A DNA stretch of 64,000 nucleotides from the human T2T-CHM13v2.0 reference genome, Homo sapiens, in the NCBI RefSeq assembly GCF_009914755.1, contig NC_060925.1; one strand, 5' to 3'. Every line of letters begins with the position of its first letter. Position 1 is the stretch's first letter. The notes below the pieces were generated by a model. The model ran no database searches and was not told where the DNA came from. It saw only the letters and a list, made by a program, of their open reading frames with translations. This document shows, one piece after another, positions 30,261-53,147 of the stretch. Made by a program: the position numbers and the translations under genes.

Positions 30261-32574
30261 GTGATTGCGGAAGGCCTTGCTGAGAAAGGGACATCTGAAC
30301 AGGAAACTGAAAGAGGTGCGGTGAGGGAGTAAGACCCGGGGACATCTGGCGACCAGCACTCGCTTCCTGCCTGGGAAAAGCAGCATCTCAGGCTGGTGTG
30401 TCCACACATCCATGCTCTTGTCCCTGCTGTCCCCTGAGCCTGGACAATCTCTGTCCTCCTGATATGCTTAGTGACAGCCTTTAGGGCCAGACTCCCAGAT
30501 GACTGATAGGGTAGAATTCCTTATTTCTCCCAGGCCTCCTTACTTCCTTTCTGGAAAAACAGGTGGATATGAAGGTGGTATGATTAAATGAATGACCACA
30601 AGTAAACAAGCAGTGTTCTTCTGCGATCCCATAACACATTGAGCCCAGTTGTTTTTAGCTCTTTACATTATTATCCTGTTCCTCTGTCCGTATCTGCCTC
30701 CCCCAGCACCCCATGTAGCCCTATGTCAGATGCATGAAAACACCTGGCTCATAGCTGACGTTCCATGAGAGCTTAGTTATTGAATGGGTCACTGTGACCT
30801 TAACCTGGGCTGGTTTAAGGCATGAGTGGGTTTTAGTGATCGCCCTTCTGTTGGGTGAAGTCCACAGGCTGAGGCCCTTCTGCTGCAGCAGCCTCGTTAG
30901 CATGATGGCCCACCCCCTGGCCTGTGCAAGTGAGGCCAAGGAGAGTCTACCCAAGCAGGCCCCAGCCCCAGCTATTCTATTCACAACACCCACCACCTGT
31001 TGGGCCATGGCTTGGGGCTTTATTGAGGCTGTGTTACCTAACCCTTGCAGCAACCCAGCAGGTGGGGGTCCTTATCCTCATTTTACCTATGAGGAAAATG
31101 AGAGGAAAGAAAAATCACCCAGGTAGTAAGTGACAGGGCTTTCCCTTAGCTGCATAGGTTGGGGGAAGAGCTGGTAGAATATTCTGTAGAATATTAACTG
31201 TAATAATACCAGGCAGCATGGGTAGATGCTCATTAGCACTGCAGCCACGCTTGGGAGCCCAGCAGAAGAAATTAGTGATTCCACTTGGGGCAGGTGGCCA
31301 CTTGGACACCATAGAAACCACAGCCTGAGCTCTGACTTCTGGGTGGAAAAGGTGTGGGGGCTCTGGGCCCTCCCACTGGAAGGTGGGACCTCAGAAGCGA
31401 GGATTTTCATGAAGCTGGCTCAGGATCCGTCCCCAAGTGCCTTGGGCCACTATCATTTATTTATTTATTTATGCACCAAAACAAGCTGAGGTAATATTTT
31501 TTAAATGTTAACTTATTTCCCCTGGTGTTTTCCTCGTAATGCAATATGCTGGTCTGAGTCCACACTTCAGTGGAGGGGGTGTCAGGAAAGAAGGCACAAA
31601 TAGTGCCCCGCCCCCTCCGTCTTTCTGTTTTGCTTTCTAAAACTTTGCTCAATGGAACAAAGAGGATTAGGGTATCTCCAAAATGTCTGGGGAAAAACCG
31701 TAAAGAGAGACAAAAGATTACCCCCATCTAGCTGGGTTTGAGGAGGTAGAGGGCGAAGTTAATGAGGGTAGCTTGGGCCAGTCTAACACGGGGAGTCCCC
31801 AGGCACTGCAGGTCCCCCAGAAAGCTTTGGGAACCCCGGGGCAGGAGTGCTCTACCTCTTTCCTGGGAAGAACCCTGGGGGAAAGCAGGAAGACCCCATG
31901 AGGGAGTGGCTGCAGACCCAGAGGAGTCCCTTGCTCCAGCCTGGCATGGAGGGAGCAGAAGGATCCTCTGCCCTTGTGAGGCATAGAGATGATAGACGGC
32001 CCTGCCAGACCTCAGGGGCTGTTGGGACAGGAACAATGCCTGTGGGCACTGCTGCCTTAGGACCAGCGGGATACTGGGAGTCTCATCAGAAGCCTAGGTG
32101 GACCAGTGAACTAAGAACCAGCTCCCGTGCCTCTGCCCCGAGTCCTGGCATGACATGACTCACTGAGATTTAGCCACAATCCCAGGAAAGAGGTGACAGA
32201 AACCTCAAATTGATGACATTTCAGTTTCTGTTACCCTGGGAGTATAGTGGCTTCAAGTAAAAATTAGGTCAAGTTACAGAGTCATAAACTACAGAAAATA
32301 TTTACCAAGCCCCTAAGACTTTAGGCACTGGGGTTGGGGGTGGGGAAAAGCAGTAAACTGGGGACCTGTCAGCGGTCCCTCTGTCAACGTTCCTGAATTA
32401 GAAGTTATGCCAGGGCTTGGCTTCTATAGACGGTCGTCTGTACGCACAGTAGTACCACTGATGTGTGTTAGGCACTGACTTTATGCCAGTCCTTGCACCA
32501 GGGATAACCTTCATCCTGTTTTAGACAGGTCCTTGGGGCTAAAAGACTAAGCACTTTGTGCAATACCACGTGGC

Positions 32575-33024
32575 TGTTTTGGGTTGAATTGTGTCCCCCA
32601 AAAAGATATGAAAGTCCTAAACCTGGTACCCGTGAGTACGACCTAACATGGAAAAGCGGTCTTTGCATATCATAAGATATGTTTGTTAGGGTGGGCCTAA
32701 TGCAATATGACTGCATTCTTATAAAAGGGGGGAATTTGAAGATAGAGACAGACATGCACTCAGGGAGAATGCCATATGAAGACGAAGGCAGAGATCAGGG
32801 TGATGCATCTACAAGCCAAAGATTGCCAGCAAACCACGAGAAGCTCGGAGAGAGGCACGGGACAGATTCTCCCTCATAGCCTCGGAAGGAACGGACCCTG
32901 TCGACACTCTGATCTCAGATTTCTGGCCTCCAGAACTGTGAGACAATAAACTTCTGGAGAGCTTAAATAAATTTAAGCCACCAATCTGTGGAACTTTGTT
33001 ACGGCAGCCTAGGATACTAATATA
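32575..33024 (+). mobile_element. MLT1C solo LTR
   Basis: tgttttgggttgaattgtgtccccc...ctacaagccaa...tggcctccagaactgtgagacaataaa; TSD gtggc / gtggg. Confidence 0.88.
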
Positions 33025-33275
33025 GTGGGTGACAATCCCACAAAGGGAAAAGATGACTTAAATACTCCTTCTCAACCACTGACACAAGCCAATGGTCCTG
33101 TAGGCACAATTACAGCTAACAAATATTTTGGATGTGTTTAAAGCACGGGCTAGTTATGAAGTTGAGGAAGGGATGGTTACCATGACAATAAATTTCTGAA
33201 TGGCTTAAATAAATTTAAGCCACCAATCTGTGGTACTTTGTTACAGCAGCCGAGGATACTAATACAGTGGGTGAC
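32942..33275 (+). repeat. 92-bp direct duplication (32942-33033 and 33184-33275) flanking a 138-bp templated insert (33040-33177)
   Basis: Manual alignment gives 8 mismatches in 92 bp, ungapped; the insert matches 34924-35061 with 13 mismatches in 138 bp. Confidence 0.95.
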
Positions 33276-33803
33276 TCCAGAGGCTGTGACTTAAGCCATG
33301 GAGTCGTGAGCCGCACGGCTAACCACTATGCTGCTGTGCAGCTGGATTCTACAGAATAGAATGTCTCTTTTCTCTCTGCTCCATTAACCCTTCTTTAGTT
33401 CTTCCCATGTCCTTTGCACTATTTTTAATTGAAATCATCTCCACCCTTTCATCAAAGACCTCACCCAAGTACCCTGTGATTCTTCCTTTCTGGGTCATTG
33501 GGAGTTCCAGAAACACCCCTTGTACTCTCGGACCCCAGGAATGTAGCTTATGCTGCTCCCTGCCTGAAATGCTCTCTACCGTCTGCCAATGGCCATCTAT
33601 TAAATCTGAATCATCCTTCAAGTCAGATTTACTGGCTCCCTCCTCTACCATCAATAGCATTAAAACACCAAAGTCTTTGCACACTCAGAATCGTTGCTGG
33701 GAATGGACATAGCTGACTTCTTAAGTGCCTTGGATACTTCTAGAAGGTCCCATAACAGCAGGTGCTTTAAAACTTCCCCTGTAGACTGTATTCTGTAGTC
33801 TTT

Positions 33804-34144
33804 TTTTTTTTTTATTATACTTTAAGTTTTAGGGTACATGTACGCATTGTGCAGGTTAGTTACATATGTATACATGTGCCATGCTGGTGCGCTGCACCCA
33901 CTAACTCGTCATCTAGCATTAGGTATATCTCCCAATGCTATCCCTCCCCCCTCCCCCCACCCCACCACAGTCCCCAGAGTGTGATATTCCCCTTCCTGTG
34001 TCCATGTGATCTCATTGTTCAATTCCCACCTATGAGTGAGAATATGCGGTGTTTGGTTTTTTGTTCTTGCGATAGTTTACTGAGAATGATGATTTCCAAT
34101 TTCATCCATGTCCCTACAAAGGACATGAACTCATCATTTTTATG
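33804..34144 (-). mobile_element. Young 5'-truncated L1 (L1PA2-like), 3'UTR
   Basis: Near-consensus 3'UTR; reverse complement reads gctagatgacGAGttagtggg, so not the Ta ACA diagnostic; perfect 12-bp TSD tctgtagtcttt at 33792-33803 and 34145-34156. Confidence 0.93.
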
Positions 34145-34923
34145 TCTGTAGTCTTTAAAGTCTGTAGACTTTAACCTGGAGTTCTTTACCCCTTCTTTCT
34201 CTTCTGGTTTCTCAAATTTGCCTGCCCATGAAAAAAATATCTTCAAATGACTCTATACTTGGCATATATCTACCCTATTAACAGATTTTTTTCAGTCCAG
34301 ACAAGAAACCCTTATTCCACTTCCTTCCTATCTCCTTCCTGTATTTTAACAAGGTTTTGTCATCTCCTTGTGCTAGCCTCAGCAGAGATGATTTGGCTGG
34401 ATGAGCATTTTATTTTGGCATTTGAAGATGGTGTTGGTGGAGCCTTCCATCCATAGACTGTAAAAAAATACAAACAGCACAAAACCATCCAGTTTTAGGT
34501 CCTGGATCCTCTCCAGTTTCAGATTAAGGCAGAAACCCTGCTCCTCCAGGATTGCAGCGTGACCAGTGCCCTGAGAGCAGACGAGTGGGGAGCCAGAATG
34601 ACAGTGGCCGCCTCTGCACAGTGGAACACTGGCCCTTGACAGCTGTAGGGGTCTGGAGGAGCTGCTGGCCTGGCGCTTTGCAGGGCTTGTGCTGAGAACT
34701 CTTCTCCTTTTTTGGAAAACAAATCAAATCCTGCAAGGAAACCTCAGCCTGGACAGATTTTCCTTGAGAACAATCCACTCTGATGTGTGCCTCTCCTTGG
34801 TGGCTTTCTGCCACAACCTTTGAAAGTTAAGGCCACTTCATGCTGCTGTAGGCCACTTCTCTGAGGAGCCCCAGAGTCGCTGAATCTTGCAAGTGCTGAC
34901 TGAAAGAAGCCTCCACTTGCCTA

Positions 34924-35061
34924 ACAAAGGGGAAAGATGACTTAAATACTCCTTCTCATCCACCGACACAACCCAATGGTCCTATAGACACAATTACATC
35001 TAACAAGTATTTTGGGTGTGCTTAAAGCATGGGCTAGTTATGAAGGAGAGGAAGGGATGGT
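34924..35061 (+). repeat. Donor copy of the 138-bp segment duplicated at 33040-33177
   Basis: Ungapped, about 91% identity by manual alignment. Confidence 0.95.
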
Positions 35062-35136
35062 GGGAGCTTTCTTATTTGCTTTTAAAATTCTGTATTTGAC
35101 AGGAATACTCTGTGCTGGCATAACAACGGGACTCTA

Positions 35137-35499
<363 letters not shown>

Positions 35500-36040
35500 T
35501 CATGGACTAGCCCAGAGGTTGTCTGGTAGTCATTAGTCTGATAGGGTGGTCCTGCCACTCTCATTGTATATTTCCCTGCTCAGGGTCTCACTCAAACCTC
35601 TGTATTCCAGTTAAAGGAAAGGGGGAAACAAAAGTGTTTGCCCAAGGTTCTCACATCCCATTAGCCCAATACTGGTAGCATAGCCACCTCCAGTTGCAAG
35701 GGATATCGGGAAATGTAGTCTCCAGTGGCATGCCTATGTGCCTAGCTAAAAATAAAAAAATTCTATCACTAAAGAACAGATATTAATGGACATGTCCTGG
35801 TCTCTGCCACCCTTTCTTTCACTTATTCACCTACTCAAGGAATTACTGAGTGCCAGTCATATTTTTGACACCGTTTTTACTCAGTTGCTTATAATCCAGC
35901 AATGTATATGAACACATGCTCAGCTAAAGTCACATTGTGCTGCATTCTCTAATAATTCAAATGCTATGGATCTTCAGGGAAGGAAGGGCTCATTTCTGTC
36001 TGGAGAGATTTGTCCATTTGTTTACAGATTTATTGAGCAC

Positions 36041-40679: not shown

Positions 40680-42135
<1,456 letters not shown>

Positions 42136-44141: not shown

Positions 44142-44532
<391 letters not shown>

Positions 44533-52723: not shown

Positions 52724-52873
52724 CAGTTGTAGTGGTTCACTCCTGTAATCCCAGTGACTTCGGAGGCTGAGGCAGGAAGATTGCTTGAGCCTCATTGCTT
52801 GAGGAGTTTGAGGTTGCAATGAGCCGTGATTGCATCACTGCACTCCAGTTTGAGTGACAGAGTGAGACCCTGT
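52724..52873 (+). mobile_element. FRAM/FAM Alu monomer
   Basis: cctgtaatcccag...ggaggctgaggcaggaagattgcttgag...cactgcactccag...gtgagaccctgt. Confidence 0.85.
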
Positions 52874-52997
52874 GGAGAAAGAAAGAAAGGCAGGAAGAAA
52901 GTAAGAAATAAGGGAAAGAAAGAATGAGAAAGAGGAAGAAAGAAAGAAAGAGAGAGAGAAAAGAAGAAAGAAAGAAAAGAAAGAAAGAAAGAAAGAA

Positions 52998-53068
<71 letters not shown>

Positions 53069-53147
53069 GAGGGGAGAGAAAGAAAGAAAATGAGAGATAG
53101 GAAAGGAGAGGGAAGAAGATGGAAGGGAAGGAGAGGAAAGGAGAAAG
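52874..53147. repeat. (GAAA)n microsatellite within a polypurine tract
   Basis: Pure gaaa run at about 52997-53067 inside about 270 nt of nearly pure A/G. Confidence 0.97.

What the first reader, a model, noticed from the sequence alone, without database searches (positions are those of the whole stretch)
32942..35061. Fossil templated insertion: A-B'-A' duplication that captured 138 bp from downstream
Seen: segment A (32942-33033) is repeated at 33184-33275 with 8/92 mismatches. Between the copies, 33040-33177 matches 34924-35061 with 13/138 mismatches. Both pairs are about 9% diverged and ungapped. A includes the MLT1C end, its TSD and flanking DNA, so the event postdates the LTR. There is no poly-A, TIR or short TSD, which argues against retrotransposition or DNA transposition. 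Removing the later L1PA2 puts the donor about 1.3 kb from the break. Inference: this was one replication or repair event with two template switches (FoSTeS/MMBIR or polymerase-theta end joining), fixed in the germ line, probably in the simian lineage.
Basis: partly seen in the sequence, partly recalled or inferred. Interest (0 to 1): 0.8.

Follow-up and report, generated by a model that had tools for sequence, protein, structure and literature searches.

The report
Ancient break repair copied nearby DNA
An old repair scar in non-coding human DNA, where a break at the edge of an ancient retroelement was patched by copying 138 bases from about 1.3 kb away and re-copying 92 bases of the break site; it is real but belongs to a class already catalogued in hundreds of copies.

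Summary
A (32942-33033) and A' (33184-33275) differ at 8 of 92 positions. B' (33040-33177) and B (34924-35061) differ at 13 of 138. Both pairs are ungapped and have sharp ends.

In the whole T2T genome, B has only these two copies. A' is the only full-length match to A. A holds the last 83 nt of an old dispersed LTR, its 5-nt TSD and 4 nt of flank. A and A' share a 12-nt insertion absent from 8 of 8 other LTR copies. A young L1 piece, 96-99% identical to other copies, entered later; without it the donor lay 1,295 bp away.

The class is known: Pace et al. 2009 (PMC2671141) list 824 proximal "repair-mediated duplications" in human, with a 147-bp median and a distance peak near 1.2 kb. This locus is not in their table. 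Their ±30-bp rule for overlap of the TE (transposable element) fragments would exclude it.

The unusual feature is the 92-bp host duplication, against their reported 4-21 nt. No primate outgroups were available, so one event versus tandem duplication plus deletion, and the dating, remain untested. Interest is low.

The parts
32576..33024 (+). It is the host element whose 3' edge was broken.
   Evidence: 3446 first-look candidates; 39 scored dispersed copies at 71-79% identity, aligned from query positions 34-47 to about 480-488; 8 of 8 fetched copies end at the same terminus.
32571..32575 (.). 5' copy of the LTR's 5-nt target-site duplication (GTGGC). The 3' copy, GTGGG, is at 33025-33029 and again at 33267-33271 inside A'.
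   Evidence: sequence read directly; 4 of 5 nt identical.
32942..33033 (+). A: 92-nt host segment, made of 83 nt of LTR end, the 5-nt TSD and 4 nt of flank.
   Evidence: the only full-length genomic match is A', at 91%.
33034..33039 (+). Filler 1 (AATCCC). Its first 3 nt, together with the last 3 nt of A, repeat the first 6 nt of A (GACAAT).
   Evidence: P=0.034 under random fillers. A 9-mer match at 32176 is judged chance.
33040..33177 (+). B': 138-nt acceptor copy of the downstream donor.
   Evidence: the only second copy of B in the genome, 91% identity, E=1.4e-46.
33178..33183 (+). Filler 2 (TACCAT). Its last 5 nt are the reverse complement of the last 5 nt of B' (ATGGT-T-ACCAT).
   Evidence: P=0.040 for this junction, 0.078 for either junction.
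33184..33275 (+). A': second copy of the 92-nt host segment. It continues into the unique downstream DNA.
33276..34923 (+). Intervening DNA between the break site and the donor: 1648 bp now, 1295 bp before the L1 insertion.
   Evidence: One search shows 34600-35166 is single-copy apart from B'.
33801..34144 (-). Later insertion: a 5'-truncated young L1 3' end on the minus strand, with a 13-T run at its left end. It is flanked by the TSD TCTGTAGTC(TTT) at 33792-33800 and 34145-34153.
   Evidence: TSD read directly; 39 other copies at 96-99% identity, 668 first-look candidates.
34924..35061 (+). B: the donor, single-copy DNA in the same orientation as B'.
   Evidence: No Rfam family and no unusual RNA fold.
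32961..32978 (.). AT-rich palindrome inside A (33201-33222 in A'). It was created by an insertion of about 12 nt private to this LTR copy and predates the A duplication.
   Evidence: the insertion is absent from 8 of 8 other copies. DNA hairpin of 7-9 bp, -5.6 kcal/mol for 32950-32990, z=-2.67.

Best explanation
This is a neutral germline scar of one break-repair or replication-restart event, most likely in an early anthropoid ancestor.

The event. A break or stalled fork occurred at the 3' edge of an old LTR. A free 3' end first picked up a few nucleotides (filler 1). It then invaded single-copy DNA about 1.3 kb downstream on the same chromosome, in the same orientation, and copied 138 nt (B'). 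It dissociated, picked up another 6 nt (filler 2), and re-engaged the broken locus 92 nt behind the point of departure. That stretch was therefore copied twice (A and A').

The net result is a 242-bp gain: a 92-bp host duplication flanking a 150-bp insert. [quoted passage not shown] This amounts to a sub-kilobase germline version of a 'cycle of templated insertion'.

What is shown: the architecture, the uniqueness of the donor, the shared private characters of A and A', the absence of transposition marks, and the order of events (LTR, then this event, then L1).

What is inferred: that it was a single event, that DNA synthesis rather than fragment ligation made B', which polymerase or pathway acted (SDSA, MMBIR, or polymerase-theta joining of a failed SDSA intermediate), and the date. 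It has no evident function.
For: Architecture and statistics.

Donor uniqueness: B has 2 of 2 genomic matches, itself and B'. This holds with 324/105 nt of flank added, and the match stays exactly 34924-35061.

A' derives from A:
- It is 91% identical to A, against 71-79% for 39 other LTR copies.
- It shares the 9 nt beyond the LTR terminus and a 12-nt private insertion lacking in 8 of 8 other copies.

Decay since the event:
- Both copies have decayed. Using those 8 copies as outgroup, 3 differences are derived in A and 2 in A'; 3 lie in the private insertion and are unpolarised.
- The two pairs show equal divergence, 8.7% vs 9.4% (Fisher p=1.0).

No poly-A, TIR or short TSD is present.

Match to the known class (Pace et al. 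2009, PMC2671141; Results, Methods and Table S1 read):
- 824 proximal duplications in human, with mean 162 bp and median 147 bp.
- The donor-acceptor distance peaks near 1,200 bp.
- Fillers of 1-68 nt; none of 39 inspected proximal cases had poly-A.
- 20 chimeric acceptors with two donors.

Mechanistic precedents:
- Tandem duplications of about 100 bp to 10 kb, with occasional templated insertions at the joint, arise when polymerase theta joins failed SDSA intermediates (PMC8654963, passages).
- Cancer 'cycles' of templated insertions re-replicate a host segment (PMC7025897, passages).

Weak hints that the fillers are templated: GAC+AAT repeats the start of A (P=0.034), and ACCAT is the inverted copy of the adjacent ATGGT (P=0.040 for that junction).
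Against: - No outgroup sequence could be examined, so simultaneity of A' and B' is not shown.
- Equal divergence has little power: the pooled value is 21/230 with a 95% CI of 5.7-13.6%.
- Neither joint shows clean microhomology. Both have 6-nt fillers, which also fit ligation-type end joining.
- The filler hints are post hoc. The palindrome statistic reaches 0.078 when either junction is allowed.
- The 92-bp host duplication lies outside the 4-21-nt TSD range reported for the catalogued class.
- A 138-nt copy from 1.3 kb away is long and distant for typical polymerase-theta templated insertions (own knowledge).
Confidence: 0.72

Rival explanations
1. Two events. First, a roughly 1.5-kb tandem duplication of the whole A-X-B segment, whose joint is B'/filler 2/A'. 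Later, a roughly 1.3-kb deletion removed X from the first copy, with joint A/filler 1/B'.
For: It gives exactly the observed order A-B'-A'-X-B and the same equal divergences. Tandem duplications of this size, joined with fillers, are well documented (PMC8654963).
Against: - It needs two rare events in the same 1.5 kb.
- The deletion would have to carry a 6-nt filler of the same length as the duplication joint, which is a coincidence under this model.
- The single-event class is known to be common, with matching insert size and donor distance.
- There is no direct test here.
Confidence: 0.13
2. Staggered break plus fragment capture. Two nicks 92 nt apart on opposite strands gave long overhangs that were filled in, producing the A/A' duplication. 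A free 138-bp DNA or cDNA fragment from the neighbouring region was then ligated between the blunt ends by classical end joining, with untemplated nucleotides at both joints.
For: - Fill-in of complementary 3' protrusions gives tandem duplications in an NHEJ-dependent way (PMC8355091, abstract and passages; 43-nt overhangs were tested there).
- 6-nt fillers at both joints fit end joining.
- DNA or cDNA patches at breaks are documented (PMC5110952, passages).
Against: - The donor is intact, lies in cis 1.3 kb away and is in the same orientation. This favours copying from a nearby template over capture of a free fragment. In Pace et al. the proximal class is the one without retroposition marks.
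- Class 2 templated insertions are described as lacking target duplications and coming from distant, transcribed regions.
- No transcript evidence for B was examined, and no RNA family or structure was found.
Confidence: 0.1
3. A mobile-element event or coincidence. Either B' is a retroposed or transposed element with an unusually long target duplication, or A' is an independent LTR fragment.
For: The overall insert-flanked-by-direct-repeat shape resembles a target-site duplication.
Against: - No poly-A or poly-T, no TIR, and no TTTT/A-type site at the joints.
- B has only two copies in 3.1 Gb.
- No Rfam family and no unusual fold were found.
- A' shares 9 nt of non-LTR flank and a private 12-nt insertion with A.
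Confidence: 0.02

Closest known systems
[quoted passage not shown]
   Same: - A non-TE sequence with exactly one other genomic copy is inserted into a TE.
- The donor lies on the same chromosome within 5 kb. Here it is 1.3 kb at the time of the event; their histogram peaks near 1.2 kb.
- The insert size is 138-150 bp; their median is 147 bp.
- Filler nucleotides are present and there is no poly-A.
- The event is of primate age, with divergence like their 'All primates' rows.
   Different: - The host site is duplicated over 92 bp, against their reported TSD range of 4-21 nt.
- The locus is absent from Table S1: no chr1 row at 67.7-68.2 Mb, and none of the 14 MLT1C rows in the <5-kb sheet is on chr1. 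My hg18 position, about 67.85 Mb, is an estimate from recalled gene coordinates.
- Their pipeline required the TE fragments to abut within ±30 bp in consensus coordinates and discarded donors within 50 bp of the acceptor. Structures like this one were therefore excluded by design.
Cycles of templated insertions (PCAWG; Li et al. 2020, Nature, PMC7025897)
   Same: Copied templates are strung into one host locus, and the string returns to the host and re-replicates a host segment. Each template gains one copy.
   Different: Those events are somatic, in cancers, typically involve several chromosomes, and were called at structural-variant scale. This one is germline, fixed, sub-kilobase, and has a single cis-proximal template.
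Tandem duplications from polymerase-theta joining of failed SDSA intermediates (Kamp et al. 2021, PMC8654963)
   Same: A direct host duplication (theirs range from about 100 bp to 10 kb) whose joint can carry templated insertions, with 'patchwork' fillers from repeated abortive synthesis.
   Different: - That work was shown in helq-1-mutant C. elegans.
- Their inserts are short and come from break-flanking sequence. Here the insert is 138 nt from 1.3 kb away.
- The genetic dependence cannot be tested on a fossil.
FoSTeS/MMBIR serial template switching
   Same: Several templates joined in one replicative event with copy-number gain, and the switches stay close together in cis.
   Different: Microhomology at the joints is the usual hallmark. 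Here both joints have 6-nt fillers and at most a 3-nt GAC overlap. The scale is far smaller than the CNVs for which the models were proposed.
Templated sequence insertion polymorphisms, class 2 (Onozawa and Aplan 2016 review, PMC5110952)
   Same: A patch copied from elsewhere in the genome at a presumed break, with an intact donor and end-joining features at the joints.
   Different: Class 2 events are described as derived from distant, often transcribed regions via RNA, and as lacking target duplications. Here the donor is 1.3 kb away and a 92-bp host duplication is present.

Membership tests
Repair-mediated duplication (Pace et al. 2009) | An insertion of at least 50 bp interrupts an annotated transposable element | tested here: met
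   A 150-bp insert lies between two copies of the LTR's last 83 nt.
Repair-mediated duplication (Pace et al. 2009) | The inserted sequence is found at only one other place in the genome | tested here: met
   The whole-genome search returns B and B' only. The tool warns that counts are lower bounds.
Repair-mediated duplication (Pace et al. 2009) | The donor is on the same chromosome, more than 50 bp and less than 5 kb from the acceptor | tested here: met
   Start-to-start spacing is 1884 bp. The distance from break to donor was 1295 bp before the L1 insertion.
Repair-mediated duplication (Pace et al. 2009) | No poly-A/T tail; joints show filler, microhomology or deletion | tested here: met
   No A or T run at either end; 6-nt fillers at both joints.
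Repair-mediated duplication (Pace et al. 2009) | Pipeline rule: the end of TE fragment A lies within ±30 bp of the start of TE fragment B in consensus coordinates | tested here: not met
   The two LTR fragments overlap by 83 nt; the rule is read. This is a screening rule, not a mechanistic criterion, and it explains why the locus is missing from Table S1.
Repair-mediated duplication (Pace et al. 2009) | An empty orthologous site in outgroup species | not testable with these tools
   No primate genomes are held; one search states that the genome has no relatives here.
Cycle of templated insertion (PCAWG) | A string of copied templates returns to the host chromosome and re-replicates a host segment | tested here: met
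   The A-B'-A' order, with A and B each present twice; the definition was read.
Cycle of templated insertion (PCAWG) | All junctions arose concurrently on one derivative chromosome | tested here: inconclusive
   The junctions are on one chromosome, and the divergences are equal at 8/92 vs 13/138. Simultaneity needs outgroups.
FoSTeS/MMBIR | Microhomology of about 2-5 nt at each template switch | tested here: inconclusive
   Both joints have 6-nt fillers. A possible 3-nt GAC overlap exists between the end and the start of A. About 9% later divergence blurs the joints.
Polymerase-theta end joining signature | Fillers templated from sequence next to the break, either direct or as inverted 'snap-back' copies | tested here: inconclusive
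   GACAAT repeats the start of A (P=0.034). ATGGT-T-ACCAT is an inverted copy (P=0.040 for that junction, 0.078 for either junction). Both tests are post hoc.
L1-mediated retroposition (processed copy / class 1 TSIP) | Poly-A tail, a TSD of 5 bp or more (typically 7-20 nt, recalled), and a TTTT/A target | tested here: not met
   None of these is present at the insert. For contrast, the nearby L1 piece shows all of them.
Simple tandem duplication | Copies abut head to tail | tested here: not met
   150 bp, of which 138 are copied from elsewhere, separate A and A'.

The most novel reading that the evidence does not exclude
This locus would exemplify a systematically overlooked germline class: proximal templated insertions that also re-replicate tens to hundreds of bases of the host site, i.e. 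sub-kilobase 'cycles of templated insertion'. The only genome-wide screen of repair-mediated duplications excluded such events by design, through its ±30-bp TE-fragment rule and its 50-bp donor rule. If they are numerous and their fillers are enriched for direct and snap-back copies, they would link primate germline RDs to polymerase-theta joining of failed SDSA intermediates rather than to clean SDSA.
Probability: 0.15. Interest if true: 0.4.

Novelty: new member of a known kind. Interest (0 to 1): 0.2.

Why it matters
Taken alone it matters little. It is a neutral scar in intergenic DNA between two predicted lncRNAs, and I found no sign of function: no RNA family and no unusual fold.

Its value is as a clean, fully resolved example of how germline breaks are patched by copying nearby DNA. 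It also points to a blind spot in the published catalogue, since events that duplicate more than 30 bp of the host element could not be found by that screen. A relaxed rescreen of complete primate genomes could show how often repair re-replicates the break site, and which end-joining signature the joints carry.

Tried and rejected
1. Dispersed repeat for B. Rejected: there are 2 of 2 genomic matches, with and without flanks.

2. Independent LTR fragments for A and A'. Rejected by the shared flank and the private 12-nt insertion, and by 91% identity against 71-79% for other copies.

3. B as a small-RNA gene or retroposed RNA. The Rfam scan of 32400-35600 at E≤1 gave 5 matches, all sub-threshold and all inside the Alu at 35166-35454, with none in A, B or B'. 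RNA folds of B and B' on both strands had z from -0.52 to +0.61.

4. A local template for the fillers. k-mers of 7 nt or more were searched over 28-40 kb on both strands. Filler 2 had none. Filler 1 had a 9-mer at 32176-32184, which I judge chance given about 24 kb searched against 4^9 possibilities.

5. Extending either repeat with gaps or into the flanks. No extension was found.

6. Looking the locus up in Pace et al. Table S1. It is not there. My hg18 coordinate is an estimate from recalled gene positions, so I widened the search to 67.7-68.2 Mb.

8. Primate orthologues: no tool holds them. The own genome 'has no relatives here'.

9. Date from a molecular clock. The result depends wholly on the assumed rate: 22, 32 or 49 Myr for 2.2, 1.5 or 1.0e-9 per site per year. 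I therefore relied on the empirical table comparison instead.
Full report
**Observation**

A (32942-33033) and A' (33184-33275) differ at 8 of 92 positions. B' (33040-33177) and B (34924-35061) differ at 13 of 138. Both pairs are ungapped, and identity drops to background immediately outside each block.

Between the blocks lie two 6-nt fillers: AATCCC (33034-33039) and TACCAT (33178-33183).

Across the whole 64-kb window there are 13 direct-repeat families of 60 nt or more within 6 kb. Only these two are neither Alu-like nor a simple tandem array.

**Is B a dispersed repeat?**

No. A search of the window's own 3.1-Gb assembly with B returns two places only: B itself, and B' at 91% identity (E=1.4e-46). 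With 324 nt of upstream and 105 nt of downstream flank added, the result is the same, and the match to B' still spans exactly 34924-35061. The tool warns that its counts are lower bounds, but nothing else was even a first-look candidate.

B matches no Rfam family. The 5 matches at E≤1 in 32400-35600 are all sub-threshold and lie in the Alu at 35166-35454. B and B' also do not fold unusually as RNA (z from -0.52 to +0.61).

**What A is**

A query covering 32540-33060 finds 3446 first-look candidates. Of the 40 scored, 39 are dispersed copies at 71-79% identity. They align from query positions 34-47 to about 480-488, which places an old LTR at about 32576-33024.

The 5 nt before the LTR (GTGGC) and after it (GTGGG) are its target-site duplication, 4 of 5 identical.

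I fetched eight other copies and aligned their 3' ends with A and A':
- All eight lose similarity right after the LTR terminus, while A and A' share the next 9 nt.
- A and A' also share an insertion of about 12 nt that all eight lack.
- So A' is a copy of A, not an independent LTR fragment.

In the genome-wide search with A, only A' matches the full length. The other 27 hits cover only positions 25-34 to 68-91, at 82-93% identity.

Using the eight copies as outgroup, 3 of the 8 A/A' differences are derived in A and 2 in A'. The other 3 lie in the private insertion and are unpolarised. Both copies have therefore decayed since the event.

I could not test the family names MLT1C and L1PA2, because no repeat library was at hand.

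**Order of events and geometry**

The masked stretch 33791-34147 is a 5'-truncated L1 3' end on the minus strand. It has a 13-T run and a 9-12-nt target duplication, TCTGTAGTC(TTT), at 33792 and 34145. It is 96-99% identical to 39 other scored copies, so it is much younger than the repeat pairs, which are 9% diverged.

The insert has no poly-A or poly-T, no terminal inverted repeats and no short TSD.

**Joints**

Neither joint shows clean microhomology. There are two hints that the fillers are templated:
- The last 3 nt of A plus the first 3 nt of filler 1 (GACAAT) repeat the first 6 nt of A.
- The last 5 nt of filler 2 (ACCAT) are the inverted copy of the last 5 nt of B' (ATGGT), separated by one T.

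I tested both against 20,000 random filler pairs:
- A 6-mer of the first kind near any of the four breakpoints occurs with P=0.034.
- A 5-bp inverted repeat of the second kind occurs with P=0.040 at that junction, or 0.078 at either junction.

Both tests were framed after seeing the data, so these are hints and not evidence of a pathway. A 9-mer spanning filler 1 recurs at 32176, which I regard as chance.

**What it is**

The order A-f1-B'-f2-A'-X-B is what results if a 3' end leaves the locus at the end of A, copies B from about 1.3 kb downstream, and re-enters 92 nt behind its point of departure.

Pace, Sen, Batzer and Feschotte 2009 (PMC2671141; I read the abstract, Results parts 1-2, the Methods section on identification, and parts of Table S1) found 1,136 insertions into TEs with a single other genomic copy. 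Of these, 824 had the donor within 5 kb. For that proximal class:
- Mean size is 162 bp and median 147 bp.
- Donor-acceptor distance peaks near 1,200 bp.
- Fillers are 1-68 nt.
- TSDs are 4-21 nt in a minority of cases.
- None of 39 inspected proximal cases had a poly-A tail.
- 20 acceptors were chimeras of two donors.

This locus fits on size, distance, donor uniqueness, fillers and age.

It is not in their Table S1. None of the 14 MLT1C rows in the <5-kb sheet is on chr1, and no chr1 row lies at 67.7-68.2 Mb. My hg18 position rests on recalled gene coordinates.

The reason is probably methodological. Their script required the two TE fragments to abut within ±30 bp in consensus coordinates, and here they overlap by 83 nt. 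It also dropped donors within 50 bp of the acceptor.

**The one unusual feature**

The 92-bp host duplication lies outside their 4-21-nt range. Precedents exist elsewhere:
- 'Cycles' of templated insertions in cancer genomes re-replicate a segment of the host chromosome (PMC7025897, passages).
- In helq-1-mutant C. elegans, tandem duplications of about 100 bp to 10 kb, with occasional templated insertions at the joint, arise when polymerase theta joins SDSA intermediates that failed to anneal (PMC8654963, passages).
- Fill-in of complementary 3' protrusions by Pol alpha-primase gives small tandem duplications through NHEJ (PMC8355091, abstract and passages).

I therefore file the locus as a new member of a known kind, with a long host duplication as its particular trait.

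**Rivals**

Tandem duplication plus deletion. A 1.5-kb tandem duplication of A-X-B, followed by deletion of X from the first copy, gives the same map and the same divergences. It needs two rare events, and it needs a deletion joint that happens to carry a filler of the same length as the duplication joint. I give it about 0.13, but only outgroups can exclude it.

Staggered nicks plus fragment capture. Nicks 92 nt apart, filled in, with ligation of a free fragment, also fit the fillers. The intact, cis-proximal, co-oriented donor favours copying instead. I give this about 0.10.

Retroposition, transposition or coincidence are effectively excluded.

**Date**

Pooled divergence is 21/230 = 9.1% (95% CI 5.7-13.6%), and the two pairs do not differ (Fisher p=1.0).

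A molecular clock gives 22-49 Myr depending on the assumed rate. I therefore compared the value with Table S1 itself:
- The first 54 rows labelled 'All primates' (present down to marmoset) have mean 9.40%. They are 54 of the 513 primate-specific events named in the text.
- The first 30 of 289 rows labelled HCOR (catarrhine-specific) have mean 6.56%, and only 4 of 30 are at or above 9.1%.

These are partial, non-random samples of the table. They suggest the event is at least as old as the catarrhine stem and probably predates the split from New World monkeys.

**Function and verdict**

The locus lies in intergenic DNA between two predicted lncRNAs and away from the annotated silencer and enhancer (hub annotation). 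I found nothing suggesting function.

The finding is real, carefully observed and correctly interpreted in outline. It is an instance of a catalogued process, so I score interest at 0.2. The boldest reading still open is that long-host-duplication events form an overlooked germline class, because the published screen could not see them. I put that at 0.15.

Noticed in passing
window 32958-32980 (and 33200-33222 in A'): This LTR copy carries a private insertion of about 12 nt, absent from 8 of 8 other genomic copies. The insertion is an inverted copy of the adjacent ATTTAAGC(CA) and creates an AT-rich palindrome with a 7-bp stem in A and a 9-bp stem in A' (DNA fold -5.6 kcal/mol for 32950-32990, z=-2.67). 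It looks like an older short inverted template switch. It predates the A duplication and lies inside the re-copied segment. Whether it helped stall a fork is speculation.
   Followed up: partly
window 33792-34153: A young, 5'-truncated L1 3' end on the minus strand, with a 13-T run and a 9-12-nt target duplication at a TTT/AAA site. It is 96-99% identical to 39 other scored copies. It is an ordinary retrotransposition that postdates the finding.
   Followed up: yes
window 35166-35454: An Alu element gives sub-threshold Rfam matches to SRP RNA and to the Alu-derived families mir-1268, mir-3135 and mir-619. All are below their gathering scores. This is ordinary.
   Followed up: no
window 52860-53140: A degenerate tandem array with spacing of about 8 nt: 17 overlapping 106-nt copies at 60-77% identity (family D1). 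It sits next to an Alu-like segment at 52802-52873.
   Followed up: no
window 41766-42080 and 44146-44453: Two Alu-like elements 2373-2380 bp apart are 79-87% identical over 105-190 nt (D9 and D11). This is probably just two Alus of one subfamily and was not examined.
   Followed up: no
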